Origin: an uncultured Fibrobacteraceae bacterium
GTDB taxonomy: Bacteria; Krumholzibacteriota; Krumholzibacteriia; LZORAL124-64-63
Reading direction: 5' to 3'
Assembly: GCA_964384825.1 (NCBI GenBank)
Contig: CAYLMM010000005.1
Location: 4,417-68,416 of the forward strand
DNA length: 64,000 nucleotides
Shown: positions 32,680-46,793 of the stretch, piece by piece
Position numbering within the stretch: position 1 is the stretch's first letter
Layout of the letters: each line of letters starts with the position of its first letter
Notes under the pieces: generated by a model
Seen by the model: the letters and a program-made list of their open reading frames with translations, nothing else
Databases searched by the model: none
What the model was told of the DNA's origin: nothing
Translations under genes and position numbers: made by a program

Positions 32680-34041
<1,362 letters not shown>

Positions 34042-34224: not shown

Positions 34225-34548
34225 ATGAAGAAAGCATTATGTGCCATGACGATGGTCACTCTGGTGCTTCTTCCCGCTTTGGTGGCGACGCCCGCCTTCG
34301 CTTCCCCTGCCGTCCAGGTGATCAACCCGACAACCCAGACGTGCCCGCCGTCGATCGATGACTCCATCGACGGCCCGCAAGAGTACGGTCTGGACGGAGA
34401 TCCGGACGATGCCATCATCGGCAACAAGGGCAAACCCGTCATTAACAACACCAGTGGTGTGGTTTTGCCGCAGGGGATGCTGATCAACGAATTGCTGGAT
34501 TGCCTGTACGGCATGGCAGCCAGCATCGTGCAGGCGGTCGCCTTGTAG
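34225..34548 (+). CDS. small secreted Cys-containing protein (107 aa), low-GC relative to the genome
   Basis: GGAGAGGGAA RBS. Signal peptide 'MKKALCAMTMVTLVLLPALVATPAFA'. The mature ~80 aa is acidic ('DGPQEYGLDGDPDD') with two Cys. Local GC is clearly lower than in the flanking genes. Confidence 0.45.
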   Translation: MKKALCAMTMVTLVLLPALVATPAFASPAVQVINPTTQTCPPSIDDSIDGPQEYGLDGDPDDAIIGNKGKPVINNTSGVVLPQGMLINELLDCLYGMAASIVQAVAL

Positions 34549-34566
34549 AATCCTCTTCGGAGGATT
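34549..34566 (+). other. perfect 7-bp hairpin with TTCG tetraloop immediately after the stop of the small secreted gene
   Basis: 'aatcctc-ttcg-gaggatt' begins 1 nt after TAG 34546-34548. No U-tract follows directly; a T7 run sits about 38 nt downstream at 34604-34610. Confidence 0.4.
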
Positions 34567-34646
34567 CCGGGCTGAAGCTGCGCCTGGGGCAGAGAACAAC
34601 AAGCGGATCGTTTTTTTGCCCACCTACTCGCCAGGGGACAAAAACG

Positions 34647-37600
34647 ATGAGTGACAACATCGAAGGCCGCAAACGCAAGGACGCCGATCGTTCGGTGCCT
34701 CGAATTGTGCGTGGCGGCGGGGACCTCGACCGGCTCGAAGAGATCGGGGACCTGCATTTCGAAGCTTCCGCCTTTTCTTCCGCGCTGGAGTATTACCAGC
34801 GTTTGCTGGATGCCGCCCGTTACGATCTCATCGATCCCGCCCGTTCCCTCGGCATTCTGCGCAAGAGCATAGACGCCGCCCTGAACCTGGGCGATCATGC
34901 CCTGGCCGAGGGCCTGCTGGCCCGCGCCTCCGATTTCGCCGGTCCGGATTCCGACCTCGATTCCGAGGACCGCATGATGCTGCTGGCCCCGATCATGGGC
35001 CGCCGGGCCGGTCTGCTGGCCAATCGCAGTTCCTACGCCAAGGCCCTGCAGCTCGCCAAACACGCCTTCGCGGTGCTGGCCATCACCGACGACCACAAGG
35101 AAGTGGCCAACCTCCAGGTCACCATGGGCGTCTGCCACCAGCGCCTGGGCCGCCCCGGCAAGGCCGAGGAATTCTACACCGACGCCCTGGCCACCTTCCG
35201 CCGAATCGGCGATGAGCTGGGCACGGCCATCCTCTACAACAACCTCGCCCTGCTGCAGAAGAACAGCTGCCGCTGGGACCGCGCGCTGCAGCTCCAGGAG
35301 AAGGCCGTCGCCGTGGCCCGCCGCCACGGGGCGACCCATCTGCTCTCGCGCCTCTACCTCAACGAGGGCATCATCCTGCGCAAGACCGGCCGTCTGGGCG
35401 AGGCTCGGGCCAGTCTCGAGAAATGTCTCCGGCTGTCGCGCAGCCTGGGCGACATCGCCCGCCAGACCAAGGCTTCCCTGGCCCTCGGATATCTCGAACT
35501 CGAAGAGGGGCACCAGGCCCGGGCCGAGGAGATGATCATCGCCGGCAAGACGCTGGCCGAAGAGGGCGGCTTCGTTCGCGAGGCCACCATCGCCGACGAG
35601 TATCTCGGCGACATCCTGCTTTCCCGCGGCGAGATCGACAAGGCGCTCTACAATTACCAGCTGGGCCTGCGCAAGACCCAGGTGATCGGCAAGGTGACCG
35701 ATCTCGAGGGCGAACTTCTTCGCCGCAGCGCCGAGGCCTACCGACTGCGCGGCGAGATCGACGAAGCCATCTCCACCGGCCAGGCGGCTGTCGCGGTCTG
35801 CGAATCCTGCGGCGAGGAATACGAACTCGGATTCTGTTTCCGGACCCTGGGCCAGGCCTTCACCGAAGCCGGCGAGTTCTCCGAGGCCGACCGTTATTTC
35901 CGCGATTCGATCGGACAGTTCCGCCAGCAGAATCTCCAGGCCGAGATCAGCCGTTCGGTCCTGGCGTTCCTCGAAGCCCGGCTCCCGAGCGCCGGCCGGT
36001 CCGAACTGCTGCTGCTGCGCCGGTATCTGGTCGAGGCCATCGAACGCCGCGTGTCCGATGACGCTCTGCTGCGCGGCCTCCATCGCGGTCTGGCCGAGAT
36101 CCAGCTGCGGCTGGGACAATTCGAAGAGGCGCTGCTGACGGTGGCGGAACTCGATCGTCTCAGCGTTGGCGGTTCCGTCGGCGCGGAAGAGGACGAGGTC
36201 GCCGTTCTGCGCCAGCGCATCGAAAAGCGTCTTGCCGGAGACCTGTCCTCCGCCAAGGAGCATATGGAAGCCATGACCGCGGTTCCCGGCCTGGTCGAAG
36301 GGGAGGAGATCGCGGCCCAGAGCCTGGCGTCCATCCTGAAATCCGGACTGGCCAAGACGGGGGGCGATTCGGGCTTCCTTGCCCTGCGCCGGGCCGATTC
36401 CCGGATCGAAGTGATCGCGGCCGAAGGCGTTTCCGGCGGTTCGGCGGCGTCCTTGGCCGGTTGGTACTCGGACCGCTCCGGACATGATGATCCTGTCGCT
36501 CCCTTGGTCATGACCCGGATCGAGCCGGACAGCGAATTGGCCGTCGCGATCCCCGCGCTCGCCGATCTGGCGGACAGCTGCGTTTTCCTGCCCGTGACCC
36601 ATGAAGGCGTCGATTACGGCGTCCTGTTCCTGGCCAAGCGGAATTCCTCCGGCGCTCGAGCCTCGTTCTCCCGCGCCTCCCTGGAGTTCCTGACCGCCTA
36701 TCTCGGCTTCCTGGGCGTTTTCCTCGCCGCGGTGCCCGGTCGCCGTTCGAACGCCTCGCCGATCCCGATCGAGGAACGGGAATGCTTCGAGAACATCATC
36801 ACAGGCGACGAGCTGATGCTCGAACTGCTCGGTTTGATCCGCAAGGTCGCACCGAGCGAATTGACCGTCCTGCTGCACGGCGAGACGGGCACCGGCAAGG
36901 GGCTGCTCGCCTATGCCATCCACGCGCTGAGTTCTCGCAAGGACGACAGGTTCCTGGCGGTCAACTGCGCGGCCATTCCCGAATCGCTGCTCGAAAGCGA
37001 ACTGTTCGGCCATGTCCGGGGCAGCTTCACCGGTGCGGTCGCGGACAAGGCGGGCCTGCTGGTCGAGGCCGAGGGCGGAACCCTCTTCCTCGATGAGATC
37101 GGGAAGATGCCGCTGGCCATGCAGGGCAAGCTCCTGCACTTCCTCGACACCAAGGTCGTCCGCCCGGTGGGATCGAACATCGAACGGCGGGTGGATGTCC
37201 GCATCATCTGCGCGACCAAGGGCGATCTCCAGGAAATGGCGACCCGCGGCGACTTCCTCGAGGATCTCTACTACCGGCTGCTCGATTTCCCGCTGCGCGT
37301 GCCGCCCCTGCGCGAGCGTCCCGAGGATATCCGGTTGCTGGTCCAGCACTTCATCGCCCGCTTCGCCGCCGAACTGGGGCGTTCGGTCCCGGGCTTCACT
37401 TCCGCCGTGGCCGCGGCTCTCCAGAATTACCTCTGGCCGGGCAATGTTCGCGAACTCGAGAAGTGTCTGCGCCGCGCCATCGTACTGTCGCAGGACGACG
37501 ACATGCTCCGGCTCTCCCATCTGCCCGCCGAGATCGCGGGCGTCGGAGTCGAGAGCGGCGACCCGGCCCGCGTCGCGCCGTTGCGGGAAACCCTCAGCGC

Positions 37601-37733
37601 TGTCGAAAGCCGCGAGATAGCTGCGGCTTTGCGCGCGTCGGGCGGCAACAAGTCCGAAGCCGGACGCATGCTCGGCATCAGCTACCCCAGCCTGCTCAGA
37701 AAGATCCGCCTCTACGGGATCACTTCCGACTGA
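34647..37733 (+). CDS. large sigma-54 enhancer-binding protein: N-terminal TPR array + GAF-like domain + sigma-54 AAA+ + HTH (no receiver domain)
   Basis: About 700 aa of TPR-like repeats, followed by 'LLHGETGTGKGLLAYAIH', 'ESELFGHVRGSFTGA' (GAFTGA) and a C-terminal Fis-type HTH 'GGNKSEAGRMLGISYPSLLRKI'. 1028 aa. The antisense ORF 34101..37955 is an artefact. Confidence 0.75.
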   Translation: MSDNIEGRKRKDADRSVPRIVRGGGDLDRLEEIGDLHFEASAFSSALEYYQRLLDAARYDLIDPARSLGILRKSIDAALNLGDHALAEGLLARASDFAGPDSDLDSEDRMMLLAPIMGRRAGLLANRSSYAKALQLAKHAFAVLAITDDHKEVANLQVTMGVCHQRLGRPGKAEEFYTDALATFRRIGDELGTAILYNNLALLQKNSCRWDRALQLQEKAVAVARRHGATHLLSRLYLNEGIILRKTGRLGEARASLEKCLRLSRSLGDIARQTKASLALGYLELEEGHQARAEEMIIAGKTLAEEGGFVREATIADEYLGDILLSRGEIDKALYNYQLGLRKTQVIGKVTDLEGELLRRSAEAYRLRGEIDEAISTGQAAVAVCESCGEEYELGFCFRTLGQAFTEAGEFSEADRYFRDSIGQFRQQNLQAEISRSVLAFLEARLPSAGRSELLLLRRYLVEAIERRVSDDALLRGLHRGLAEIQLRLGQFEEALLTVAELDRLSVGGSVGAEEDEVAVLRQRIEKRLAGDLSSAKEHMEAMTAVPGLVEGEEIAAQSLASILKSGLAKTGGDSGFLALRRADSRIEVIAAEGVSGGSAASLAGWYSDRSGHDDPVAPLVMTRIEPDSELAVAIPALADLADSCVFLPVTHEGVDYGVLFLAKRNSSGARASFSRASLEFLTAYLGFLGVFLAAVPGRRSNASPIPIEERECFENIITGDELMLELLGLIRKVAPSELTVLLHGETGTGKGLLAYAIHALSSRKDDRFLAVNCAAIPESLLESELFGHVRGSFTGAVADKAGLLVEAEGGTLFLDEIGKMPLAMQGKLLHFLDTKVVRPVGSNIERRVDVRIICATKGDLQEMATRGDFLEDLYYRLLDFPLRVPPLRERPEDIRLLVQHFIARFAAELGRSVPGFTSAVAAALQNYLWPGNVRELEKCLRRAIVLSQDDDMLRLSHLPAEIAGVGVESGDPARVAPLRETLSAVESREIAAALRASGGNKSEAGRMLGISYPSLLRKIRLYGITSD

Positions 37734-37944
37734 TCCATTGCTCCTTTTTTGATTATCCCCGCCAGGACTGTAAAATTTTTTAATAATCCAACTTGTTGCA
37801 TACCAGGGCTTTACGTTTTTCACCCCCGGAGCTGTAAATGATTGTGATAATTTACGCGATTCCGCTTGCCGGCGACGATGCCGCCTTGCTATGTAACTCG
37901 TTGTCAGAAAGCAAGTTGCAATTATGTTAATAGTCTTCTGCTTC

Positions 37945-37960
37945 TGGTACGGCACCTGCT
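37945..37960 (+). promoter_or_regulatory. sigma-54-like -24/-12 element TGGTAC-N5-cTGCT (candidate)
   Basis: GG at 37946-47 and GC at 37958-59 with the canonical 10-nt spacing. 5/6 and 4/5 matches to TGGCAC-N5-TTGCW. It lies inside the 850-bp low-GC non-coding island. Confidence 0.3.
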
Positions 37961-38519
37961 GTAATCGAACCAGGAAGGGACCAGTTGCAGGGAACTTCTG
38001 GTTCTGGACAGGTTGCTGGGAATTTCGGGAATCCAGGAGGTGAATCGGGTTCGTTCTCCATGTGCTGACCGGCTGAGTGGAGATGTTTCATCGAGTAGTA
38101 TCCGCAGCGCGGTGGTCGAGAGGTGGGGTCCCGGTCATCGATGACAGTGGATGTGGAAACAATGAATCCGATTCGCGTTCTCCCTCTTAGAGGGTCCTGA
38201 AATTCCCAGCCCCGACACACCGAGATCTTCTGGAAAGAGCCTTTCCGTTCTTGAAATGGCGAGATTCAAGAACGGTCCAGCCATTGCGGGGCGGGCTCTT
38301 TCCTTCTTTTCCCCCTGGAATTTCCTCTTCGTTTTTCAGCGTCCCCTTCTGGGGAACGGGTTGCCCAATGGGGGACACAATCCGCTTTGCGGGAGACGTG
38401 TCAGGTGGGCTCCGTGTTGCGACCCATCCAACCCTGGTGTATTATTAATGCATTGAAAAATAATCTCTTACAGCTCAGTCTGGCTGGATTCCCCTGCGCG
38501 GCGTACTCTCGGGGATGAA

Positions 38520-38536
38520 CGGCACGGACCATGCGT
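38520..38536 (+). promoter_or_regulatory. sigma-54-like -24/-12 element cGGCACG-N4-aTGCg about 50 nt upstream of ATG 38585 (candidate)
   Basis: GG at 38521-22 and GC at 38533-34 with 10-nt spacing. GGCACG matches the -24 core. It is followed by a 45-nt leader with an AGGAG RBS. Confidence 0.35.
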
Positions 38537-38584
38537 AATGGTAATCGGGCAAACAAGAGCACGCTTCAGACAGGAGTTTCTGGC

Positions 38585-39586
38585 ATGAAGAACACACGCG
38601 GACACGATTGTCACGAAGTGGTGCCGCGGACGCACGCGGGATCCGGAATCCTGCATCACCCCTCGATTCCGGGTCCCCGCGCCGTCTGGCTGTTGCTCGG
38701 TCTGCTGGTTCTGGTCGCTCCGCTGCTTCTGGTGGGCGGGTGCGACGATGACGAAGTCGTCGCCGTCCCTGTCGATCAGACTCCGCCGCCGGTGCCCACG
38801 GGCATCTTCTCGGTGACCGGAGACGGCTTTGTGACCGTCTACTGGAACGATATCTACGACGAGGATCTGGCCGGCTACGACGTCTACCGCTACCAGGGCG
38901 ACGACCCGGTCGGCGGAGCCTACAACTACATCGGTTCGGTAGCCTGGGACGAGAATTTCGATTCCGAATCCCTGCTGCACTGGTTCGACGACCTGAACGT
39001 CGTGAATGGGGAGACCTACTATTACGCCGTGCTGGCCTATGATTATGCAGGCAACGAGAGCTATCTCAGTTTCGAGACCATCGTCGATACCCCGCGGCCG
39101 GCAGGCTACGATCTGGTCGTATTCGACCGCGCCGCTTCGCCGATCCGGTCGGGTGTCGATTTCTACGATTTCGATATGATGATCGGCGCCGAAGCTGTTC
39201 CCTACGACGCCGTGGACGCCGATGTCTATGTGACCTTCAGCGATGGCGTGCCTTTCGTGGAAGCGGCCCGGGAAGGGATCCTGCTGCAGGATTACGGCAC
39301 CGTGCTGCTGGACTGGGCGGACTACGCGCCCGCGGACGGGTATTCCGCCACGGGCCGGCTTGAACTGATCACCGGGCACGCCTACATCGTGCGGATCGTC
39401 GAGGAATACGAGATCGGCGGGACGCCGATCCAGGAATTGCATTACGCCAAATTCGGCGTCACCGCCATCGGTGCGGACGCCGTGACGATCGACTGGGCCT
39501 ACCAGGTCGATCGTGAAAATCCGGAGCTGGGCGCGCCCGACGGGCCGCCCGCGGCCGGAGGCGGAGCCGCCGTCGTGCGGTTCTGA
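38585..39586 (+). CDS. lipoprotein with fibronectin type III-like domain
   Basis: AGGAG RBS. Lipobox 'LLLVGGCDDD'. 'FSVTGDGFVTVYWNDIYDEDLAGYDVYRY...GETYYYAVLAYDYAGNES' is an FN3 signature. Confidence 0.55.
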   Translation: MKNTRGHDCHEVVPRTHAGSGILHHPSIPGPRAVWLLLGLLVLVAPLLLVGGCDDDEVVAVPVDQTPPPVPTGIFSVTGDGFVTVYWNDIYDEDLAGYDVYRYQGDDPVGGAYNYIGSVAWDENFDSESLLHWFDDLNVVNGETYYYAVLAYDYAGNESYLSFETIVDTPRPAGYDLVVFDRAASPIRSGVDFYDFDMMIGAEAVPYDAVDADVYVTFSDGVPFVEAAREGILLQDYGTVLLDWADYAPADGYSATGRLELITGHAYIVRIVEEYEIGGTPIQELHYAKFGVTAIGADAVTIDWAYQVDRENPELGAPDGPPAAGGGAAVVRF

Positions 39587-39592
39587 TAAAAC

Positions 39593-39609
39593 CGGACGGA
39601 TTATCCGTC
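39593..39609 (+). other. perfect hairpin ggacgga-tta-tccgtcc in the 35-bp gap between the FN3 lipoprotein and DUF4384 genes
   Basis: 7-bp stem, 3-nt loop and no U-tract, directly upstream of the GGGAGG RBS of the next gene. Confidence 0.35.
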
Positions 39610-39621
39610 CATGCCGGGAGG

Positions 39622-41385
39622 ATGACCATGGGACGCAAGGAGAAACGATACGATCGCTGCGAGCGGCGGAACTGCCGGGTTCTGCGGGCGGTGGTCCGTT
39701 CCGCCCTGCTCCTGTCGGCGATGGCCTTGCTGCTGACCGTGCCCGGAGCCGGCCTCGCCGCCGAGCGGGAGCAGTGGACGGATTACGACGCCCAGCCGTT
39801 GCGCGTGAACATCTGGCACGACCGCGACGAGGGCGACGTCTATCGGCGCGGCGAATCGGTTCGGGTCCACTTCGAGACCAAGCAGGACGCCTACGCGGTC
39901 GTCTATCGCATCGACGCCTCCGGCGAGGTGACGGTTCTCTGGCCGCGCAGCCGCATGGATGACGGATTCGTGTTCGGCGGGCACGTGTACAACCTGCCGT
40001 CGCCGGGCGCGCCGCGCATCAAGGTCGGGGCGGAGGACGGCATCGAATACATCGAGGCCGTGGTCTCGCTCTATCCCTTCGATCTGCGCGGTCTGGATCT
40101 CGATTTCCATCATGAGCGCGAGGATGTTTCCCGGGCGTTCTTCGTTGCGGGAGATCCCTTCCTGGCCATGAACGAGATCAACCACGAGATCACCGGGCTC
40201 GAGGATCCCGCGGACTTCGTGGTCACCAACTACACCAACTACTACGTCGGGCGCGAGGTGGCGCATCCGCGTTACATGTGCAGCCAGTGCCACGATGACG
40301 ACGTGCGGTACGAACCCTACCGCGACACCTGCTCCATCGAGATCCACTACGATTACGGCTGGTACAACGACTGGTACGGCCGCTACGGGTACTATCCGGT
40401 CTATTACTATCCGGCCTACTACTACGTCGATCCCTGGACATGGAGCCCGTGGGTGAACTACTGGTACCGTCCGTGGTACCGCTGGCCCGGCGGTTTCGCC
40501 TACAGCTGGGGCTGGGATTGCTACGTCTGGAACTACTCGCCCTACTGGCGGGGGGATTCCTGGGTTCGCTACAAGGCGGGCAACCGTCGCTACCGGCCTC
40601 TGGACAAGGGCGTCCGCTACAAGAGCCTGGCCGACGGCACTCCCTTCAATAATCCGAAAGGATTGGTCAAGACGGGTCGTCCGACGGCCGACATGGAATC
40701 GACGCTGCGGACCAAGACGATCGTCGCGCGTCCCGGGTCGAAGCCGGGCGGGGACGTGGCCAAGTCTCCGACCGCGGACAGGAAGATCTACAAGAACGTG
40801 GCCGCGCGCGATCGCGCGCCCGCCGTCATCGACAGGAGCGCCGCGCAGAAGTCCAAGGCCGGGCTGCGGATTCCCGGCGGTAGCCGCAGCAGCACCATCT
40901 CCACCGGCAAGGGCGCCCGGACGTTGTCCGGGAGCCGCGCGACCTCGTCGAGCCGGGTGAAATCGGTACCGCAGAGCGGGGCGTCCGGGAGTTCCGGGGA
41001 CAAGGTCCTGAAATCCCGTTCCGGCGGGGCCGCGAAGTCCAGCGGGACGGTGCGCAAATCGGTCGTGCCGCTGGAGAAGGGCTCGCGCGTCTGGAAGGGG
41101 CGCGGGGATACCGCCAAGTCTTCCGGCAAGGCGCAGGATTCCGCGGTCAGGAACCGGAACACCTCGGGCAAGTCGGGAACCGGCGGATCGTCCATCAGGG
41201 AATCCGGATCGAACCCGCAGCGCGAGCCGCGCAAGTCGCCCACGGTGAAGCCGGTGCCGCGCGGGGGATCTTCGCCGGTCAAGCGGCCCGCGCCGGTCAA
41301 GAGGTCGTCGCCGCGCAGCGGCAACCAGTCGAACGGCAAGTCCGGCGGCTCGACGACCAAGAACACCGGCGGCGGCCGGCGATGA
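39622..41385 (+). CDS. secreted DUF4384-domain protein with CXXCH motif, an extreme Tyr/Trp-rich segment and a long Ser/Gly/Lys/Arg-rich tail
   Basis: Signal/TM 'ALLLSAMALLLTVPGAGLAAE'. 'VRVHFETKQDAYAVVYRIDASGEVTVLWP' is the DUF4384 core. 'CSQCH' at 40279-40293. 'YDYGWYNDWYGRYGYYPVYYYPAYYYVDPWTWSPWVNYWYRPWYRWPGGFAYSWGWDCYVWNYSPYW' (~40340-40560). The tail of ~270 aa is S/G/K/R/T-rich low complexity. Confidence 0.6.
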   Translation: MTMGRKEKRYDRCERRNCRVLRAVVRSALLLSAMALLLTVPGAGLAAEREQWTDYDAQPLRVNIWHDRDEGDVYRRGESVRVHFETKQDAYAVVYRIDASGEVTVLWPRSRMDDGFVFGGHVYNLPSPGAPRIKVGAEDGIEYIEAVVSLYPFDLRGLDLDFHHEREDVSRAFFVAGDPFLAMNEINHEITGLEDPADFVVTNYTNYYVGREVAHPRYMCSQCHDDDVRYEPYRDTCSIEIHYDYGWYNDWYGRYGYYPVYYYPAYYYVDPWTWSPWVNYWYRPWYRWPGGFAYSWGWDCYVWNYSPYWRGDSWVRYKAGNRRYRPLDKGVRYKSLADGTPFNNPKGLVKTGRPTADMESTLRTKTIVARPGSKPGGDVAKSPTADRKIYKNVAARDRAPAVIDRSAAQKSKAGLRIPGGSRSSTISTGKGARTLSGSRATSSSRVKSVPQSGASGSSGDKVLKSRSGGAAKSSGTVRKSVVPLEKGSRVWKGRGDTAKSSGKAQDSAVRNRNTSGKSGTGGSSIRESGSNPQREPRKSPTVKPVPRGGSSPVKRPAPVKRSSPRSGNQSNGKSGGSTTKNTGGGRR

Positions 41386-41612
41386 GACCGGTTGTTGTTG
41401 CCGGTTGCCGATCGGCATGATCTTATTCATCTGGCGGGACGGGAACGCGCCCGGATCCTTGAAGAGGTTGGCACCCGAGAGGGAACGGAACGGCGCCCGA
41501 CCCGCCAGGAGTTTTCCAGTGGAACGCGGTGGGGCTGGAGCAGAAGGATTGCCGATCAGGGGCGGCAATGACGATGCTTCGGTCCCACCGGTGTTTATGG
41601 GCGCCTGATAAA

Positions 41613-41641
41613 TTGACGCCTGCATGGACGCTCTCTATAAT
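41613..41641 (+). promoter_or_regulatory. strong sigma-70-type promoter TTGACG-N17-TATAAT
   Basis: -35 TTGACG at 41613-18, exactly 17 nt spacer, perfect TATAAT at 41636-41, about 50 nt upstream of ATG 41695. Confidence 0.55.
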
Positions 41642-41694
41642 GCGCTGCGTTCCCCATCATCAGCATCCGGATTTCCGGGAAAGGCCCGCACTCA

Positions 41695-44600
41695 ATGCGC
41701 ATTAAGATATTCCGAGCCTTGTCTTTGATCGCCGCTTCCCTCGCCTGTCTGGGGGCCGTGGATGCTCTCGCCGATACGGCGGCGCATCCCTTGGCCGCGG
41801 CGTCCGACAGGGGCTTCCAGCGGCAACTGTACCGATCGGCCGAGCGTCTCGGTCTGGACGGGGATCCGTCCCTGCAGGCCGCGCGGCTCGATGGCCGCGG
41901 CGCTCCCGACAGCCTGAACGCCGTCGTGCTGCTCTGCGTGTTCGCCGACAGCCTGTTCTACAGCCAGGACGGTCCCGCCGATCAGCGTCAGATCTCGCTT
42001 CCCTTCGCTCCCTACGCCGCCCACGATTCGACCTTTTTCGATCACCAGATGCGGGATGTGGCCGCCTATTTCGACGCGGTCAGCGGCGGGAAGTTTACCT
42101 TTGCGTTCACGATCCATCCCGAATTCGTCGAACTGCCGCGGGGGATGGGGTGGTACGGCGACAACGAGGAGCATGGCGAGTACCGGGCGGGGCTGGTCGA
42201 GGACTCGATTCTCGGAGCCGACGCCGATGTCGATTTCTCGCTCTACGACACGGTCGTGCTGATCCACGCCGGAGCGGGCGAAGAGACCGACATCCTGGGG
42301 AACTCGCCGGAGCAGATCTACAGCGGGTACATGGGGCCGGACGACTTCGTGGCGGCGGTCGCCGATACGCTGCTCGAAGTACCCTACATAGAGACCGACG
42401 ACGTGATGCCGGGCGGCGAACCCGCGCGGGTGCGGCACGTGCTCGTGCTGCCGGAGAACGAATTCCAGGATTCCTACATGGGGTACGGCGGGTTCTACGG
42501 ATCCCTGGGGGTCTACTGCTTCGAGGTCGGGTTGCGGCTGGGCATGCTGTCGCTGAGCGACGCGACGCCGGCGGGCGTTCCCGACAGCCAAGGGATCGGC
42601 AACTTCGGCCTTATGGGTTACGGATTGTTCGTCGGGGCCGGCTACATCCCGTCGCATCCCTGCGCCTTCAACAAGGTTCTGATGGGCTGGCTGGATCCGG
42701 TGGCCGTGGATCCGGCTGCGGGCGGGTTCTGGAACCTGCCGCCGGTCGAGGGGGAGAGCGGGACCTGCGCCCGGGTCGACATTTCGGACCGGGAATACTG
42801 GTTGCTGGAGTACCGGCTGCAGGATCCGGACGGCAACGGGATCTTCTCGCTGCCGGGCGATCTGAACGGGAACAACATCCCCGATTTCTACGACGATGAC
42901 GGTCCGGACGGGTGGCCGGTCGGATACTTCGATCCCGCCGTCGACCGGCGCGAATGGCTGGACGGTTCGGAATTCGATTTCTACATGAGCGAGAATTCGG
43001 CCCGGGCGCAAGGTGTCAAGGGCGCCGGGAGCGGGCTCTATATCTGGCATGTCGACGAGGGCGTGATCCGCGACGCATTCGCCGGCGGGGAACGCGTCTT
43101 CAATTCGAACGCCGAACGCAAGGCTGTCGATCTGGAAGAGGCCGACGGCATCCAGGACCTGGACACCCGCGTGGGGACGCCGTTTCTGCTCGGCGGCGAC
43201 GACGACGCTTTCCGGGGCGAGGGCGCCGTCAGGTTCGGACCCGATACCAGGCCCTCGACCGCGACTGCCGGGGGGGCGTTCACCGGACTGGTCCTGGACT
43301 CGATCTCCCCGGTCGTGGCGGATTCCTCCCATGTGCCCGCCGGCGAAACGGCTCCGGTGATCCTCTATGCGCCGAGCATGAGTTTCCGCTGCAGCGTGGA
43401 ATCCGTCGGCATCGGAGACGCCGATCTGATTGCAGCGGTCGATCTGCCGGGCGTGGACCTGACCGGGATGCATCCCCTGGCGGCGGACCTGGACGTGCCG
43501 GCAGACGGCACCCGCGAGATCGTGCTGGCGGGTTCCGGGGGGCGCGTTTTCGCTTTCCGCGCCGACCTGTCCTCTCTGGCCGCCGCCCCCGCCGAGCGGG
43601 GCCTGCTGGCCCTGGGCACCGACGCGGACGGCGAACCGGCGGAATGGATCGGCCCGCCGGCTGTCGGGGACGTGGACCGGGACGGGCGTCCGGAGATCGT
43701 GCTGGCCGCGACGACCGGCCTCTACGTGTTCAACGGCGAGGACGGCTCCGAATACGCGGACATGGACGCGGATACCGACAGCTACGGCTTGATGCTGCCC
43801 ACCGCGGACATCGTTCAGCCGCTCCTGCTGCTGTCGCGGACGGACGTTCCGCAGTTCGCCGACATCGTGCTGGCGATGGAATCCGACAGCGGCGGCGCCT
43901 CCCTGATGCGCGTCGATGTCGCCGGGGACGGGGATGTTGCGATGCCGCTGCCCGAGCCCGCAGGCTCCTTCGCGGCCCCGCCCGTGTTCTGGGGCGGCAG
44001 GCTCTGGGCGCTGACCGTCGATGACCCGGGCGGCGCGCTGCTGCAGACTGCCGACGATGTCGTTGCCCTGCCCGCGGAACCTTCGGGCCTGAGGCCCCTG
44101 GCGGTTGGCGACGCCCTGCTGATCCCGCTGATCGAGGGCGACGCGGTCCTGGCCGTGGACCCCGGCGATCCCCGGATCCGCAGCTGGCAGGGCCCGGCGC
44201 TGCTTTCGCCGCCCGTTCCGGGCGTGGCGTTCATCTCCGAGGGCGCGTTCAACGTCTGCGGCGTGGAAGGATTTCCGCGGACCGGATGGCCGCGGCGACC
44301 GATCGATGCCGTCGAGCCGGGGCCGGGCGCCGCCGCGGCCGGCCCCGCCGTGATCGAGACCGCCGCCGGCGATCCGCTCTATCTCTTCGCGGCCCGGGAC
44401 GGCCGCCTGATGCTCTACGATTCCCGGGGAGAGGTTCCGGGAAACCTCTCGACCCTGGCGGGTCCCGGCGACGCGGCCGGGTCGCCGCTGATGATGGATC
44501 TCGGGGGGGACGGCGGGATCGATATAGTCGCGGCCGGGTCGTTCCCCCGGCTGACGGGCATCGATCCGGATTCCGGCGAGCCGGCGACCGAACCGTCCTC

Positions 44601-45012
44601 GAGCGTCATGCGATGGCGCATCGACGGGTTCGCCGCCGGGCGCGAGATCTGGCCGCAGTGGGGAGGCACGCCGCTGCGCTCGGCCGCGGCTCCCGAAGCC
44701 GGCGGCGGACCGGGCGAGGGGGACGGGTTGCTGGCGCCGGGCGGCGGCATCTGCTATCCGAATCCGCTGGGCGCGGGGCCGCTGCACGTGCGCGCCGAGG
44801 CCCTCGTCGATTGCGAGATATCGGTGACGTTGTACAACCTGGAAGGGGAGGTCGTGGCCTCGCCGCCGTCGGTGACGGCGATCGCCGGCGATCCGATAGA
44901 AGTGCTGCTGTCCGTGGACGGGGCTGCTTCCGGCGTTTATCTTTGCCGGTTGGAAGCCCGCGCCGGGGGCCGTACCGAAAAGAGCATCCGTCCCGTCGCG
45001 ATCGAGCGTTGA
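41695..45012 (+). CDS. large secreted M6/InhA-like domain protein (no canonical HExxH seen) with repeat-rich middle and T9SS type-A CTD
   Basis: Signal peptide 'MRIKIFRALSLIAASLACLGAVDALA'. The N-domain 'AVVLLCVFADS...VVLIHAGAGEE' resembles the immune-inhibitor-A (M6) fold. The C-terminal 'ICYPNPLGAGPLHVRAEALVDCEISVTLYNLEGEVV...SGVYLCRLEARAGG' is a T9SS CTD. 1105 aa. Confidence 0.5.
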   Translation: MRIKIFRALSLIAASLACLGAVDALADTAAHPLAAASDRGFQRQLYRSAERLGLDGDPSLQAARLDGRGAPDSLNAVVLLCVFADSLFYSQDGPADQRQISLPFAPYAAHDSTFFDHQMRDVAAYFDAVSGGKFTFAFTIHPEFVELPRGMGWYGDNEEHGEYRAGLVEDSILGADADVDFSLYDTVVLIHAGAGEETDILGNSPEQIYSGYMGPDDFVAAVADTLLEVPYIETDDVMPGGEPARVRHVLVLPENEFQDSYMGYGGFYGSLGVYCFEVGLRLGMLSLSDATPAGVPDSQGIGNFGLMGYGLFVGAGYIPSHPCAFNKVLMGWLDPVAVDPAAGGFWNLPPVEGESGTCARVDISDREYWLLEYRLQDPDGNGIFSLPGDLNGNNIPDFYDDDGPDGWPVGYFDPAVDRREWLDGSEFDFYMSENSARAQGVKGAGSGLYIWHVDEGVIRDAFAGGERVFNSNAERKAVDLEEADGIQDLDTRVGTPFLLGGDDDAFRGEGAVRFGPDTRPSTATAGGAFTGLVLDSISPVVADSSHVPAGETAPVILYAPSMSFRCSVESVGIGDADLIAAVDLPGVDLTGMHPLAADLDVPADGTREIVLAGSGGRVFAFRADLSSLAAAPAERGLLALGTDADGEPAEWIGPPAVGDVDRDGRPEIVLAATTGLYVFNGEDGSEYADMDADTDSYGLMLPTADIVQPLLLLSRTDVPQFADIVLAMESDSGGASLMRVDVAGDGDVAMPLPEPAGSFAAPPVFWGGRLWALTVDDPGGALLQTADDVVALPAEPSGLRPLAVGDALLIPLIEGDAVLAVDPGDPRIRSWQGPALLSPPVPGVAFISEGAFNVCGVEGFPRTGWPRRPIDAVEPGPGAAAAGPAVIETAAGDPLYLFAARDGRLMLYDSRGEVPGNLSTLAGPGDAAGSPLMMDLGGDGGIDIVAAGSFPRLTGIDPDSGEPATEPSSSVMRWRIDGFAAGREIWPQWGGTPLRSAAAPEAGGGPGEGDGLLAPGGGICYPNPLGAGPLHVRAEALVDCEISVTLYNLEGEVVASPPSVTAIAGDPIEVLLSVDGAASGVYLCRLEARAGGRTEKSIRPVAIER

Positions 45013-45092
45013 GACGCCGCGACGAGGCTGCAGGCCGGACGACCTTCTCCCGGATACCGGGCGGCGGCGGCGGCGATGAGACAGGAAGAGAG

Positions 45093-46034
45093 ATGACGTC
45101 GAGAAACAGCGCGAGCCTTGCGACGGTCCTGATGGTCCTTCTGGCGGGGATCCTCGCCGCCGCGGCTCCCGCCGCTGCCGGCGGAGACCCCGGCGACGCC
45201 GGATTCCTGTCGCTGCGCTTCCCGGTCGGGGCGCGGGAGACCGGAATGGGCGGGGCGGGAGTGGGCGCGGCCACCGGCGCCGCGGCCGTCTACTGGAACC
45301 CGGCCCGTCTGGCCTTCGAGCAGAAGGGCACCGATCTGCTCCTGCAGCATCAGAGGCTCTACGATCTGTTCGACAAGGAAACGGCGATCGTGGCCCACAA
45401 GACCGGTTCCGGAGCGCTGGGATTCTTCTTCTCGGGATTCTATTCCGACGACATCGAACGCTACGGCACCGAGCCGGTGGGCGTGCCCGAGGGATCGTTC
45501 AATCCCCAGCAGGTGGCGTTCGGGGTCTCCTATTCGCGGATGTTGAGTTCCGATCTGGCTGCGGGCCTGACCGTGAAATACCTGCACGAGGAGATCGACG
45601 TCTACGACGGTTCGAGCTTCGCTTTCGACATCTCGGTCGCGCACAAGGCCGTCGTCGAGGGATTGTGGCTCGGCGCCTCGCTGCAGAACCTGGGTTCGGG
45701 GATCAAGCTCAACGAGGTGGAGTACGACCTGCCCGTGACCCTGCGGGTCGGCATGGCCTACGATCCCACCCTGCCGTTCTTCGCCGGGAACGTCAGCTTC
45801 GCCGCCGACGTCCTGGTGCCCAACGACGGCAACGAGAAGGCGCATGTCGGCGTCGAGTACCGTCTGATGGACGTCCTGTCGCTGAGGGCGGGGACCAAGA
45901 TCAACTACGAGTCCCAGGGGCTGACCGCCGGCGCCGGCTTCCGCCGCGGCCGGGTCGAGGTGGGCTACGCCTACGAAGACATGGAAAACGATCTCGACGA
46001 TTCTCATCGTTTCGTGGTCGAACTGCATTACTAG
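45093..46034 (+). CDS. PorV/PorQ-like outer-membrane beta-barrel (T9SS-associated family)
   Basis: AGGAAGAGAG RBS. Signal peptide 'MTSRNSASLATVLMVLLAGILAAAAPAAA'. 'FLSLRFPVGARETGMGGAGVGAATGAAAVYWNPARLA' matches the PorV/PorQ/UPF0164 N-terminal signature. The protein has an alternating beta-strand pattern and ends '...RFVVELHY'. Confidence 0.55.
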   Translation: MTSRNSASLATVLMVLLAGILAAAAPAAAGGDPGDAGFLSLRFPVGARETGMGGAGVGAATGAAAVYWNPARLAFEQKGTDLLLQHQRLYDLFDKETAIVAHKTGSGALGFFFSGFYSDDIERYGTEPVGVPEGSFNPQQVAFGVSYSRMLSSDLAAGLTVKYLHEEIDVYDGSSFAFDISVAHKAVVEGLWLGASLQNLGSGIKLNEVEYDLPVTLRVGMAYDPTLPFFAGNVSFAADVLVPNDGNEKAHVGVEYRLMDVLSLRAGTKINYESQGLTAGAGFRRGRVEVGYAYEDMENDLDDSHRFVVELHY

Positions 46035-46040
46035 CGGGAA

Positions 46041-46793
46041 TCAGAGACCCGGGGGAGGGCCGTCGCAGAAGTCCAGAAGCTCCAGGCGCCCCTCCCGGAT
46101 CAATCCGTAGCCCTCGCGTCCGAGCCAGCCTCCGAGCGCCGCCAGGCGGCGTCCCCCGTGTTCCACGACGAACGGATGATGGACATGGCCGATCACGGCC
46201 GTGTCCCAGTCTCCGCGCATGTGCCGCAGGCGTTGCAGGGCGAGCTGCTCGATGCGGTCGGCCTCGTCGCGGGTCGCGGCGCGGCTGCGGCCGCTGAGCC
46301 AGGTGGAGATGGCGTAGAGGATCTCCGGATGGAGGGATTTGGCCAGCAGGACCCCCGCCCGGCGCCGCACGATCCAGCGGAAGGCGGCGTAGGCCAGGTC
46401 GCGGCCGAGCAGGCCGTCGCCGTGGATCATCCGGAACCTGGTGCCGCCGAGTTCCAGGGTCGTCGCCTCGCCGTCGGCCGAGCAGCCGTAGCGGCGGTGG
46501 AGATAGCCGGCCGCCCAGATGTCGTGGTTGCCGCCCACGAAGTGGATCCGCGTTCCGCTCTCGCGGACGCGGTCGAGGGCCTGCAGCAACCGTTCGTAGC
46601 CCTTGAGCCGGAAGTGGGGGTAATCGAACCAGAAATCGAAGATATCGCCGAGCATGACCAGATGGTCCGCCCGGCGACCGGTCTCGAGCAGTTCGAGGAA
46701 ACGGGCGAGCCGGGCCTTTTCCGCCGGGTCCGGGTCGAGATGGAAATGCGTGTCGGCCACCAGCAGCGCGGTGGCGGAAGTGTTGTTGCCCAT
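46041..46793 (-). CDS. lpxH: UDP-2,3-diacylglucosamine diphosphatase
   Basis: 'LLVADTHFH...DHLVMLGDIFDFW...GNHD' are calcineurin-like metallophosphoesterase motifs. The LpxH-specific C-terminal 'GHVHHP' is present. Confidence 0.7.
   Translation of the reverse strand: MGNNTSATALLVADTHFHLDPDPAEKARLARFLELLETGRRADHLVMLGDIFDFWFDYPHFRLKGYERLLQALDRVRESGTRIHFVGGNHDIWAAGYLHRRYGCSADGEATTLELGGTRFRMIHGDGLLGRDLAYAAFRWIVRRRAGVLLAKSLHPEILYAISTWLSGRSRAATRDEADRIEQLALQRLRHMRGDWDTAVIGHVHHPFVVEHGGRRLAALGGWLGREGYGLIREGRLELLDFCDGPPPGL

What the first reader, a model, noticed from the sequence alone, without database searches (positions are those of the whole stretch)
39622..41385. DUF4384 protein with CXXCH motif, a ~75-aa segment that is ~45% Tyr/Trp, and a 270-aa Ser/Gly/Lys/Arg tail
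After a DUF4384 core the protein has a lone c-type-haem-like 'CSQCH'. This is followed by 'YDYGWYNDWYGRYGYYPVYYYPAYYYVDPWTWSPWVNYWYRPWYRWPGGFAYSWGWDCYVWNYSPYWRGDSWVRY'. That aromatic density is typical of adhesive, amyloid-like or phase-separating low-complexity regions, or of carbohydrate- or mineral-binding surfaces. The C-terminal third is a basic, unstructured S/G/K/R/T-rich tail ('SGKSGTGGSSIRESGSNPQREPRKSPTVKPVPRGGSSPVKRPAPVKR'). Such tails are typical of peptidoglycan- or nucleic-acid-binding, or of secreted scaffold proteins. The protein is exported (signal/TM anchor) and sits in the putative sigma-54 cargo block.
Basis: seen in the sequence. Interest (0 to 1): 0.65.

Follow-up and report, generated by a model that had tools for sequence, protein, structure and literature searches.

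The report
Exported haem-motif protein with folded aromatic domain
This gene encodes a phylum-wide, uncharacterised envelope protein of uncultured Krumholzibacteriota; it joins an Ig-like domain to a new, tightly conserved domain that is about 45% tyrosine/tryptophan and carries an invariant haem-attachment motif, and it ends in a long positively charged floppy tail.

Summary
ORF 39622-41385 (+; likelier start 39628) has a signal peptide, DUF4384 (E 8.5e-14), one CSQCH, a 75-aa block with 45% Tyr/Trp (chance about 4e-29) and a tail of net charge +46.

All 163 family sequences that cover the motif region have one [PA]R[YF]xCxxCH plus a Cys 11-20 residues after the His. The aromatic block is as conserved as the DUF4384 core (0.60 mean identity, no gaps) and AlphaFold2 predicts it folded (pLDDT 86-92). 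It is therefore a folded domain, not a low-complexity, amyloid or phase-separating region. It is also a Krumholzibacteriota elaboration, because deeper relatives keep CxxCH...C but lack it. Residues 411-587 are predicted disordered and conserved only in composition.

No Pfam, NCBIfam or PDB relative exists beyond the Ig-like part. The gene always follows an Fn3 lipoprotein gene behind a sigma-54 promoter (71 of 77 loci), next to a TPR sigma-54 activator.

Best reading (not proven): a new family of exported monohaem c-type protein, possibly His/Cys-ligated. Main rival: a structural metal or disulfide site.

In passing I found an undescribed ~340-nt structured RNA just upstream, driven by a second sigma-54 promoter.

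The parts
34644..37733 (+). TPR (MalT-like) sigma-54 activator (bEBP) gene, the probable regulator of the unit
   Evidence: Pfam Sigma54_activat E 7e-63, TPR_12, AAA_lid_14 and HTH_8. It lies immediately upstream in every locus long enough to show it, including distant lineages.
38520..38535 (+). Proximal sigma-54-type -24/-12 promoter element (cGGCACGGACCATGCg) ahead of the lipoprotein gene
   Evidence: Read from the sequence and aligned with homologues. The pattern .GGCA[CT]N5.TGC. occurs within 350 nt upstream of the lipoprotein gene in 71 of 77 loci, including L085, L087, L090 and L091.
38582..39586 (+). Partner gene: Fn3-type lipoprotein (334 aa) with lipobox ...GC followed by DDDE
   Evidence: It is called as a gene. 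It is homologous in all lineages at 35-40% identity, E 1e-42 to 1e-49. The N-terminal domain matches a solved Fn3-like protein at E 1.5e-7. It has no Pfam or NCBIfam hit. The acidic run after the Cys resembles the Bacteroidota lipoprotein export signal (PMC5080379).
39622..41385 (+). Target CDS (587 aa; probable true start 39628, giving 585 aa)
   Evidence: The family has 221 clusters at E<=1e-3 and is found in 83 species-level genomes.
39622..39759 (+). Signal peptide region (residues 1-46)
   Evidence: It has a basic n-region and a hydrophobic core, and homologues end in A-x-A|Q. AlphaFold2 predicts a helix at residues 19-36. Mean identity is only 0.23.
39838..40068 (+). DUF4384 Ig-like beta-sandwich (residues 73-149)
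   Evidence: Pfam PF14326 at E 8.5e-14. pLDDT is 94-97. Foldseek finds only Ig, macroglobulin and GbpA-type sandwiches.
40069..40269 (+). Family-specific extension (residues 150-216: YPFDLR, DFHHE, GDPFLAMNE helix, VTNY strand)
   Evidence: This is the most conserved region, with mean identity 0.69. pLDDT is 80-96. The 'GDPFLA.N' motif is kept in all tiers.
40279..40293 (+). CSQCH (residues 220-224), the candidate covalent haem c attachment site
   Evidence: C220, Q222, C223 and H224 are invariant. All 163 family sequences that cover the motif region have exactly one CXXCH, always as [PA]R[YF]xCxxCH.
40330..40332 (+). Invariant third Cys (C237) in the 'DPYxxxC' motif, a candidate distal ligand
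   Evidence: It is present in every motif-bearing sequence, 11-20 residues (mostly 13-14) after the His. P232 and Y233 are also invariant.
40348..40572 (+). Tyr/Trp-rich block (residues 243-317), a folded aromatic domain
   Evidence: It is 45.3% Y+W. Mean identity is 0.60 with no gaps, and 21 of 34 Y/W positions are at least 90% aromatic. pLDDT is 86-92 over residues 231-280 in the full-length model. It contains a 15-nt (YYPxY) repeat. It is absent in short-type relatives.
40573..40851 (+). Residues 318-410: weakly conserved linker with segments predicted to dock on the fold
   Evidence: pLDDT is 82 and 79 at residues 351-370 (helix 356-364) and 90 at 391-400. Mean identity is 0.27.
40852..41382 (+). 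Polycationic disordered tail (residues 411-587)
   Evidence: pLDDT is 39-51. Composition is conserved but sequence is not: the family median net charge is +38, with K+R 23% and S+G+T+P 43%. There is an 18-nt repeat at 41272-41313.
41056..41106 (+). Conserved Trp-containing linear motif inside the tail (KSVVPLEKGSRVWKGRG; family consensus [IV]RPVEPRxKGsRIWxGGR)
   Evidence: V481, P483, R489 and W491 are invariant or nearly so. Related islands are 'RRWTRPV[IV]RN' in tier 2 and 'RPGRLWQGRDE' in short-type relatives. pLDDT here is low, so it is not docked in the monomer model.
41399..41417 (+). Terminator-like hairpin after the target stop codon
   Evidence: an 8-pair stem followed by a T-rich tail.
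41613..41641 (+). Sigma-70-like promoter (TTGACG-17-TATAAT) ahead of the next gene
   Evidence: 11 of 12 matches, against a shuffle mean of 0.2. This suggests the sigma-54 unit is bicistronic.
41695..45012 (+). Neighbour: M6-like (probably inactive) metalloprotease with FG-GAP and a T9SS C-terminal domain
   Evidence: NCBIfam NF052323 at E 1.5e-47 (162 bits, below the 600-bit cut-off), M6 domain at 2.3e-16 and Por_Secre_tail at 1.7e-3. Pfam FG-GAP_3 also matches. It is syntenic in most lineages.
45093..46034 (+). Neighbour: PorV/PorQ-family outer-membrane barrel
   Evidence: NCBIfam NF033709 at 161.8 bits, above the 90-bit cut-off. It is syntenic.

Best explanation
The gene encodes a Sec-exported cell-envelope protein of a family found throughout Krumholzibacteriota. 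After the signal peptide come an Ig-like DUF4384 beta-sandwich and a conserved extension. A new folded domain follows. I propose that this domain carries one haem c, covalently attached at CSQCH with His224 as proximal ligand. The invariant Cys237 (or Tyr233) in the 'DPYxxxC' motif would be the distal ligand.

The Tyr/Trp-rich block forms the folded shell of this domain. It is not a low-complexity region. The last ~180 residues are a polycationic disordered tail. The tail contains a short conserved Trp motif, which I infer tethers the protein to anionic envelope material or to a partner.

The protein is made together with an Fn3 lipoprotein from a sigma-54 promoter, which is probably driven by the adjacent TPR activator. 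It lies next to a T9SS-anchored pseudo-protease and a PorV-like barrel. I therefore infer that it works as a redox-active or ligand-sensing component of an inducible envelope or surface complex.

Shown: the architecture, conservation, predicted fold and disorder, the promoter element and the synteny. Inferred: haem attachment, the ligand set, the tethering role and the exact location.
For: - Motif conservation: every one of the 163 family sequences that cover the motif region has exactly one CXXCH, always as [PA]R[YF]xCxxCH. All of them also have a third Cys 11-20 residues after the His. This holds across tiers that share only about 25-35% identity.
- Chance: a CXXCH is expected 0.0009 times per protein of this size.
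- Export: the N-terminus looks like a signal peptide with an A-x-A|Q site, and there is no T9SS CTD, lipobox or second hydrophobic segment.
- Host haem capacity: Krumholzibacteria MAGs encode OmcS, Cyc2, cbb3, NrfAH and Hao (PMC7914226). Krumholzibacteriota are among the phyla reported with unusually many secreted multihaem proteins per MAG (PMC11495043). That study's MAG set includes L026, L027 and L050, which carry this gene.
- Aromatic block: it is conserved like a folded core (identity 0.60, no gaps) and predicted folded (pLDDT 86-92).
- Tail: it is predicted disordered (pLDDT 39-51) and always polycationic (median net charge +38).
- Regulation and context: a sigma-54 -24/-12 element is present in 71 of 77 loci. 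A terminator-like hairpin follows the gene, and a sigma-70-like promoter precedes the next gene. The lipoprotein partner is homologous in all lineages. The cassette order is invariant in about 80 genomes.
Against: - No haem was or can be observed here.
- There is no sequence or fold similarity to any known cytochrome c family. Pfam at E<=0.1 returns only DUF4384, NCBIfam returns nothing, the PDB profile search returns nothing, and Foldseek returns no hit at E<=1e-3.
- No ccm, ccs or res gene was seen among the window ORFs I scanned. Their presence in this particular genome was not tested.
- No universally conserved His or Met distal ligand exists. H215, H163/H164 and M183 are lost in tiers 2 and 3, so the ligand assignment is a guess.
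- Three conserved Cys plus a His could equally bind a structural metal.
- Exporting a tail of net charge around +40 through Sec is unusual.
- Synteny is conserved across the whole phylum, so it discriminates function only weakly.
- Tier-3 aromatic relatives sit next to Tol-Pal genes, without the lipoprotein.
Confidence: 0.42

Rival explanations
1. The CxxCH...C cluster is not a haem site. It is a structural metal site (for example Zn bound by Cys3His) or a disulfide clamp that staples the aromatic domain. On this reading the protein is a non-redox envelope scaffold or ligand-binding protein, with an Ig-like domain, an aromatic binding surface and a cationic tether.
For: - Three invariant Cys and one invariant His lie within 18 residues.
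- There is no similarity to any cytochrome family or fold.
- No conserved Met or His distal ligand exists.
- DUF4384 otherwise occurs as an accessory, presumably binding, domain of caspases and kinases.
- Tier-3 relatives lie next to Tol-Pal genes, and HtrA, M23 and AmiC lie nearby in the window. This fits an envelope-structural role.
Against: - The His is invariably the residue right after the second Cys, which is the signature of haem c attachment (established knowledge).
- From general knowledge, neighbouring residues rarely ligate one Zn together, and the CxxC follows a helical turn and not a zinc-knuckle hairpin.
- The odd number of conserved Cys argues against a purely disulfide role (C300 is variable).
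- In hosts that mature many c-type cytochromes, an exposed periplasmic CXXCH would be expected to receive haem (established knowledge of Ccm and Ccs promiscuity).
Confidence: 0.3
2. One reading: the Tyr/Trp block is an adhesive, amyloid-like or phase-separating low-complexity region. The protein would be a secreted sticky scaffold, comparable in composition to mussel foot proteins, extensins or silaffins.
For: - The composition is extreme: 45% Y/W followed by an S/G/K/R tail.
- The block contains a short YYPxY repeat.
- In tier-3 relatives the block shifts position and reaches 53% Y+W, which shows compositional plasticity over long evolutionary distances.
- Homologue tails carry tandem repeats and silaffin-like S/K/G runs.
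Against: - Within the main family the block aligns without gaps at 0.60 identity and has about 20 invariant W, Y and P positions.
- AlphaFold2 predicts defined strands and helices with pLDDT 86-92.
- The block directly adjoins the invariant CxxCH...C module and is conserved along with it.
- Low-complexity, prion-like regions normally evolve by composition, as the tail does here (identity 0.29).
Confidence: 0.08
3. The aromatic block is embedded in or crosses a membrane, because Tyr and Trp favour membrane interfaces. This would leave the polycationic tail in the cytoplasm, or anchor the protein in the outer membrane, making it a bitopic or monotopic membrane protein.
For: - Both the N-terminal n-region and the C-terminal tail are strongly basic, which would satisfy the positive-inside rule if both were cytoplasmic.
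- Exporting a segment of net charge around +40 is energetically awkward (inference).
Against: - The block contains regularly spaced Pro residues plus Asp, Asn and Arg, and has no 18-20-residue apolar helix.
- AlphaFold2 packs it as short strands and helices against the soluble core.
- Most homologues have a cleavable A-x-A|Q signal peptide.
- Short-type relatives lack the block yet keep a charged tail.
Confidence: 0.05
4. The protein is itself a T9SS substrate or surface-attached cargo, like its M6-like neighbour.
For: It sits next to a T9SS-CTD protein and a PorV/PorQ-family barrel. The window encodes other T9SS-type cargo.
Against: - No Por_Secre_tail, CHU_C or FlgD_ig match was found at E<=0.1.
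- The C-terminus is a disordered basic tail, not a beta-sandwich CTD.
- The M6-like gene appears to have its own sigma-70-type promoter.
- The M6-like and PorV-like genes are missing next to P0189, while the lipoprotein and target pair persists.
Confidence: 0.05

Closest known systems
DUF4384 (Pfam PF14326) domain proteins
   Same: Residues 73-149 are a bona fide DUF4384 Ig-like beta-sandwich, scoring 51.8 bits against a 27-bit cut-off. Public annotation of the family is simply 'DUF4384 domain-containing protein'.
   Different: DUF4384 is otherwise reported as an accessory domain of caspase-like proteases and Ser/Thr kinases. The CxxCH...C module, the aromatic domain and the cationic tail occur only in this architecture. 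A profile of that module finds just 57 hits among 1.84 billion representatives.
Monohaem c-type cytochromes built on non-globular or beta-rich scaffolds, such as cytochrome f and the Cyc2 fused cytochrome-porins (from general knowledge)
   Same: It is an exported protein with a single CXXCH on a largely beta scaffold. The motif 'C[SA]QCH' is the same as in mitochondrial cytochrome c (CAQCH).
   Different: No sequence or fold similarity to any cytochrome was detected. Haem binding is unproven, no canonical Met or His sixth ligand is conserved, and there is no porin barrel.
His/Cys-ligated c-type haem proteins (SoxAX, TsdA, DsrJ; from general knowledge)
   Same: It has a CXXCH plus a strictly conserved extra Cys in an exported protein. 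In those families the extra Cys is the distal thiolate ligand and gives sulfur-related or sensing chemistry.
   Different: There is no homology. The fixed Cys spacing of about 13 residues after the His is peculiar to this family. No sulfur-metabolism genes lie in the neighbourhood.
PorQ-PorZ and PorV-PorU type pairs of the type IX secretion attachment complex (for the neighbours)
   Same: A PorV/PorQ-family barrel above its curated cut-off lies next to a large beta-propeller protein with a T9SS CTD.
   Different: The target itself has no CTD. The M6-like neighbour scores far below the NF052323 equivalog cut-off (162 against 600 bits). The organisms are not Bacteroidota.
Tyr-rich or cationic structural proteins (extensins, mussel foot proteins, silaffins; from general knowledge)
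   Same: The composition is similar: dense Tyr together with basic Ser/Gly/Lys/Arg-rich segments.
   Different: Those proteins are low-complexity and evolve by composition. Here the aromatic block is position-specifically conserved and predicted folded. Only the tail behaves like such a region.

Membership tests
DUF4384 (PF14326) | Match to the Pfam model above the gathering threshold | tested here: met
   The score is 51.8 bits against a 27-bit cut-off, E 8.5e-14, at residues 73-149.
c-type cytochrome | CXXCH haem-attachment motif | tested here: met
   CSQCH is at residues 220-224. The motif is invariant in all 163 sequences that cover the motif region.
c-type cytochrome | Export of the apoprotein to the periplasmic side (Sec signal peptide) | tested here: met
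   The N-terminus has a basic n-region and a hydrophobic core, and most homologues have A-x-A|Q. No dedicated signal-peptide predictor was available, so this rests on reading the sequence.
c-type cytochrome | Host encodes a cytochrome c maturation system (Ccm or Ccs/Res) | tested here: inconclusive
   None was seen among the window ORFs I scanned. The literature reports many c-type and multihaem cytochromes in Krumholzibacteria, in a MAG set that includes carriers L026, L027 and L050. The window's own genome could not be searched.
c-type cytochrome | Covalently bound haem | not testable with these tools
   This needs haem staining, mass spectrometry or spectroscopy of the protein.
c-type cytochrome | Sequence or fold similarity to a known cytochrome c class | tested here: not met
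   Pfam at E<=0.1 gives only DUF4384. NCBIfam gives nothing. The PDB profile search's best hit is E 0.049 to neuropilin. Foldseek against the PDB gives no hit at E<=1e-3 for either model.
Low-complexity, amyloid or phase-separating region (for the aromatic block) | Compositional but not positional conservation, with predicted disorder | tested here: not met
   Mean identity is 0.60 with no gaps, about 20 positions are invariant, and 21 of 34 Y/W positions are at least 90% aromatic. pLDDT is 86-92 with defined secondary structure.
Intrinsically disordered polycationic tail | Low predicted order, conserved composition and charge, variable length and sequence, repeat turnover | tested here: met
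   pLDDT is 39-51 for residues 411-587. Identity is 0.29. Net charge ranges from +18 to +66 with median +38, and tail length has a median of 283 aa. Tandem repeats occur in the window and in homologues.
T9SS cargo (type A or B C-terminal domain) | C-terminal Por_Secre_tail, CHU_C or FlgD_ig-type sorting domain | tested here: not met
   The target has no such hit at E<=0.1. Its neighbour at 41695-45012 does have one.
Sigma-54-dependent operon | Conserved GG-N10-GC (-24/-12) element upstream and an adjacent bEBP gene | tested here: met
   The window has cGGCACGGACCATGC at 38520-38535. The pattern is present in 71 of 77 loci. The TPR bEBP gene lies immediately upstream. Transcription itself was not measured.

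The most novel reading that the evidence does not exclude
This is the founding member of a new class of envelope c-type haem protein. A single, possibly thiolate- or tyrosinate-ligated, haem would be buried in a folded domain made of nearly half Tyr and Trp. That would be a built-in aromatic relay for radical or hole transfer, or for oxidative Tyr cross-linking. A polycationic disordered tail would hold it at the envelope. Together with a probably surface-exposed Fn3 lipoprotein and an upstream ~340-nt structured RNA, it would form the output of a dedicated sigma-54/TPR-activator regulon found across the sampled Krumholzibacteriota.
Probability: 0.12. Interest if true: 0.8.

Novelty: new variant of a known kind. 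Interest (0 to 1): 0.55.

Why it matters
Krumholzibacteriota have no cultured member, and their envelope biology is unknown. This protein and its lipoprotein partner were found in 83 species-level genomes of the phylum. They sit under a dedicated sigma-54 activator, so they probably perform a core, inducible envelope function.

If the CXXCH binds haem, the family would add a structurally new kind of c-type cytochrome. Its ligand set would be unusual and its aromatic shell exceptionally dense. That bears on how redox cofactors are housed, and on electron or radical transfer through Tyr/Trp arrays. These organisms have also been proposed to cycle iron.

It is also a clean natural example of a folded domain with about 45% Tyr+Trp, which is useful for protein-design and fold-space studies. 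If the site turns out to be a structural metal site, the finding is a lineage-specific envelope scaffold of more modest interest.

Tried and rejected
- Model geometry: the model coordinates are not exposed, so I could not measure the geometry of the Cys/His cluster.
- PDB sequence search: a profile search found nothing meaningful.
- Rfam: nothing was found in 33000-48000.
- Literature: DUF4384 appears only as an accessory domain. Nothing links Krumholzibacteriota with T9SS. The 'PorV2' hit was a text artefact.
- Sigma-54 consensus in the window alone: the scan was not significant (17 matches against 15.5 expected). Only the comparison across loci made the promoter convincing.
- Maturation genes: I looked for ccm, ccs and res genes among about 20 further window ORFs and found none. 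The other CXXCH in the window is in a cytoplasmic acyl-CoA synthetase.
- Per-MAG haem counts: the supplement tables of PMC11495043 were truncated in storage.
- Readings rejected: T9SS cargo, because there is no CTD. A membrane-spanning aromatic block, because it has no apolar helix, is predicted to pack on the core, and is absent in short-type relatives. A Tat signal, because RR motifs are not consistently placed among homologues.
Full report
**1. Observation**

The ORF 39622..41385 (+) of 587 aa is present as described. The likelier start is the second ATG at 39628. The GGGAGG Shine-Dalgarno at 39616-39621 abuts the first ATG and lies 6 nt before the second. Gene callers on two public contigs that encode an identical protein give 585 aa.

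- Pfam DUF4384 matches residues 73-149 at E 8.5e-14, 51.8 bits against a 27-bit cut-off.
- The only CXXCH is CSQCH at residues 220-224. Other Cys are at 237 and 300, and two lie in the pre-signal region.
- The quoted aromatic segment is residues 243-317, with 21 Tyr and 13 Trp in 75 residues (45.3%).
- Twenty-three other proteins of this window average 3.6% Y+W. Their highest 75-aa window reaches 0.21, so P(>=34 of 75) is 3.7e-29. A CXXCH is expected 0.0009 times in a protein of this length.
- The tail from residue 317 has 44 S, 38 G, 31 R and 29 K, with 60 K+R against 14 D+E.

**2. Conservation**

A search with residues 1-372 found 221 protein clusters. The best 120 are almost all 540-650 aa, share 49-67% identity and cover at least 83% of the query.

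- In alignments of 23, 116 and 76 members, C220, Q222, C223, H224, P232, Y233 and C237 are invariant. About 20 Trp, Tyr and Pro positions of the aromatic block are also invariant.
- Mean pairwise identity by region: DUF4384 core 0.60, extension (151-216) 0.69, CxxCH loop 0.60, aromatic block 0.60 with no gaps, residues 318-410 0.27, tail 0.29.
- 21 of the 34 Y/W positions stay aromatic in at least 90% of sequences.

**3. How far the module reaches**

I built a profile of residues 196-335 only, leaving out DUF4384 and the tail. Run against 1.84 billion representative proteins, it gave 57 hits at E<=1e-3 and 37 at E<=1e-10. Those on full-length proteins lie at about residues 177-350 of 400-690-aa proteins, so the module exists in only one architecture.

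- Tier 2 (E 1e-26 to 1e-17) keeps everything, with a differently worded aromatic block and the tail motif 'RRWTRPV[IV]RN'.
- Tier 3 and a further 36 clusters keep the signal peptide, DUF4384, 'GDP[FY]LA.N', '[YH]PRYxCxxCH' and 'DPYxxxC'.
- In tier 3 the aromatic block is either displaced behind an acidic linker and even more extreme (up to 53% Y+W), or essentially absent at 11-23%.
- Across 165 collected sequences, 163 have exactly one CXXCH in the same context. The two exceptions are N-terminally truncated fragments. The third Cys is never missing.

The ancestral, universally constrained element is therefore CxxCH plus Cys. The Tyr/Trp-rich domain is a later elaboration that is characteristic of the main Krumholzibacteriota lineage. 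The tail is always charged, with net charge +18 to +66 and median +38. It evolves by composition and by repeats.

**4. Structure prediction**

- An AlphaFold2 model of residues 47-345 gave pTM 0.84. pLDDT was 84-97 through residue ~216 and 58-78 beyond.
- In the full-length model the aromatic region is confident, with ten-residue block means of 74, 86, 92, 86, 89, 86, 68, 74 and 83 for residues 221-310. It contains short strands and one helix.
- Extra segments at 351-370 (pLDDT 82 and 79) and 391-400 (pLDDT 90) are also predicted ordered.
- Residues 411-587 sit at pLDDT 39-51, including the conserved Trp motif.
- Foldseek against the PDB found nothing at E<=1e-3 for either model. The top hits are nanobodies, complement MG domains and GbpA domains, which correspond to the DUF4384 sandwich.
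- A profile search of PDB sequences found nothing, and NCBIfam has no model for the protein.

The aromatic block thus behaves as a folded domain with no recognisable relative. Only the last ~177 residues behave as an intrinsically disordered region.

**5. Taxonomy**

A scan of one genome per GTDB species found the gene in 83 genomes. All are MAGs of Krumholzibacteriota/Krumholzibacteriia. Some carry submitter labels such as Fibrobacteraceae, Latescibacterota or Gemmatimonas. Three of them are classified by GTDB as p__Krumholzibacteriota; o__LZORAL124-64-63. There is no cultured representative and no literature on the family.

**6. Genomic context and regulation**

Wherever the contig is long enough, the gene order is invariant in about 80 loci:

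1. RR-type sigma-54 activator
2. a ~100-aa ORF
3. TPR sigma-54 activator
4. a gap of 700-1200 bp in most loci
5. Fn3 lipoprotein
6. the target
7. M6-like/FG-GAP protein with a T9SS CTD
8. PorV/PorQ-family barrel
9. Metallophos (opposite strand)

- A tier-2 member keeps the whole cassette.
- A 440-aa short-type member in a distant lineage also keeps it.
- Another short-type member keeps only the TPR activator, the lipoprotein and the target.
- The lipoprotein is homologous everywhere at 35-40% identity, E 1e-42 to 1e-49.
- The deeply conserved core is therefore activator, lipoprotein and target.
- The aromatic tier-3 members instead lie divergently next to a tolQRAB-pal-ybgF cluster.

A sigma-54 -24/-12 element (window cGGCACGGACCATGC, 38520-38535) lies within 350 nt upstream of the lipoprotein gene in 71 of 77 loci, including the distant lineages. 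By my estimate from base composition, chance would give about 2% per locus. Only 35-41 nt separate the lipoprotein stop from the target start. After the target come a terminator-like hairpin (41399-41417) and a near-consensus sigma-70-type promoter ahead of the M6-like gene. The sigma-54 unit is therefore probably bicistronic.

**7. Location**

- The target has a signal peptide but no lipobox, no T9SS CTD and no second hydrophobic segment. The default location is therefore periplasmic or envelope-associated.
- The partner lipoprotein has an Fn3 N-terminal domain (E 1.5e-7 to a solved Fn3-like protein).
- Directly after its lipidated Cys it has an acidic run (C-DDDE, C-DSDDD, C-DDDDD). This resembles the Bacteroidota lipoprotein export signal (SDDDD, SDDFE, QKDDE; PMC5080379). 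That hints at surface exposure, but only by analogy across phyla.
- The neighbours are a PorV/PorQ-family barrel above its curated cut-off and an M6-like protein with a T9SS tail. They point to an outer-membrane or surface complex.

**8. Haem or not**

Arguments for haem:

- The motif is the canonical haem c attachment signature and is invariant across lineages that share only 25-35% identity.
- The conserved His sits directly after the second Cys.
- The protein is exported.
- Members of this phylum make many c-type cytochromes. One Krumholzibacteria MAG encodes OmcS, Cyc2, cbb3, NrfAH and Hao (PMC7914226). Krumholzibacteriota are reported among the phyla with the most secreted multihaem proteins per MAG (PMC11495043). 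That study's MAG set includes L026, L027 and L050, which carry this gene.

Arguments against:

- There is no similarity to any cytochrome family or fold.
- No conserved Met or His sixth ligand exists. H215, H163/164 and M183 are lost in the deeper tiers.
- No maturation genes were seen in the part of the window I scanned.
- Three Cys plus a His could form a structural metal site.

The invariant C237 (or Y233) 13 residues after the His would be the natural distal ligand. That would make this a His/Cys- or His/Tyr-ligated haem, a class associated with low redox potentials, sensing or sulfur chemistry (general knowledge). I put haem attachment at roughly 0.55. The composite explanation, which adds the tethering role and the envelope-complex role, I put at 0.42.

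**9. Comparison with known systems**

The protein is a true member of DUF4384 only through its N-terminal domain. It meets the motif and export criteria of c-type cytochromes but fails the similarity criterion, and its haem cannot be tested here. I therefore describe it as working like a monohaem c-type protein and do not file it in any cytochrome class. It is not T9SS cargo. Its aromatic block is not a low-complexity region, while its tail is a genuine polycationic disordered region.

The closest analogies are:

- beta-scaffold monohaem cytochromes (cytochrome f, Cyc2)
- His/Cys haem proteins (SoxAX, TsdA, DsrJ)
- for the neighbours, PorQ-PorZ-type T9SS attachment pairs

**10. Found in passing**

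The gap between the activator gene and the lipoprotein gene holds a second sigma-54 element (window 37945-37960). About 25 nt downstream is a conserved 'GTTGCAGGGA' box, and the stretch ends in an intrinsic terminator, GAAAGAGCC...GGCTCTTTCyTTTTTT.

- RNAalifold on 16 diverse copies predicts 53 pairs in 9 helices, 35 of them with compensatory double changes.
- 91% of cells are paired, against 39-59% when the 3' partners are slid.
- 35 pairs change on both sides, against 15-19 in the slid controls.
- None of 500 shuffles reaches the observed values.
- An nhmmer profile finds the element in the window and 71 loci, always in the same place and on the same strand.
- Rfam 15 has no match.

This looks like an undescribed ~340-nt sigma-54-dependent structured RNA (window ~37970-38311). 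It belongs to the same regulatory neighbourhood as the target.

**11. Verdict**

This is a real, strongly conserved and uncharacterised protein family. Its low-complexity reading of the aromatic block is not supported.

- Novelty: a new variant of a known kind, namely an exported CXXCH protein on an Ig-like scaffold with a fold that has no known relative.
- Interest: 0.55. The folded 45% Tyr/Trp domain and the invariant CxxCH...C module would surprise a specialist, and they can be tested directly. Function and cofactor remain inferred.

Noticed in passing
window 37945-38311 (+): An apparently undescribed ~340-nt structured RNA lies between the TPR activator gene and the lipoprotein gene. It starts just after a second sigma-54 -24/-12 element (37945-37960) and has a conserved 5' box GTTGCAGGGA. 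It ends in an intrinsic terminator. RNAalifold predicts 53 pairs, 35 with compensatory changes. 91% of cells are paired against 59% or less in slid controls, and 0 of 500 shuffles reach the observed values. nhmmer finds it in 72 sources, and Rfam 15 has no match.
   Followed up: yes
window 38582-39586 (+): The partner lipoprotein, conserved in all lineages, has an Fn3 N-terminal domain and an unknown C-terminal domain ('HYAKF..V.IDWAYQ..NPEL'). An acidic run directly after its lipidated Cys resembles the Bacteroidota surface-export signal.
   Followed up: partly
window 41695-46034 (+): An M6-like metalloprotease homologue with FG-GAP repeats and a T9SS C-terminal domain lies next to a PorV/PorQ-family barrel. 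The first matches the NCBIfam 'inactivated M6' model at E 1.5e-47 but below the cut-off. The pair resembles a dedicated cargo and anchor pair and has its own sigma-70-like promoter at 41613-41641.
   Followed up: partly
L086:7290-9149 and L088:8001-9758: Divergent family members with an even more extreme aromatic block (up to 53% Y+W, behind an acidic linker) are not in the sigma-54 cassette. They lie divergently next to a complete tolQ-tolR-tolA-tolB-pal-ybgF cluster.
   Followed up: partly
window 39616-39630: The annotated first ATG (39622) directly abuts the GGGAGG ribosome-binding site. The ATG at 39628 has normal 6-nt spacing and is the start chosen by public gene calls, giving 585 aa.
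   Followed up: yes
window 32680-37733 (+): Two sigma-54 activator genes sit in tandem, a response-regulator type and a TPR type, with a conserved ~100-aa ORF of no known family between them (34222-34548). The arrangement is conserved in nearly all loci.
   Followed up: no
window 874-4133: Other probable T9SS cargo is present. It includes a GH32/GH43-like enzyme with a FlgD_ig/CHU_C-type C-terminal tail (2226-4133, minus strand) and a 415-aa protein with a FlgD_ig tail (874-2121). This shows that the organism uses T9SS-type sorting.
   Followed up: no
P0134, P0137, P0139 (homologue tails); window 41272-41313: The disordered tails of homologues carry lineage-specific tandem peptide repeats, for example 'KRSAPSRPRPxV', 'SKPRQGQQKPSVDR' and 'PQRSAPQRERVE'. 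The window copy has an 18-nt (SPVKRP) repeat. This indicates rapid turnover by repeat expansion.
   Followed up: no
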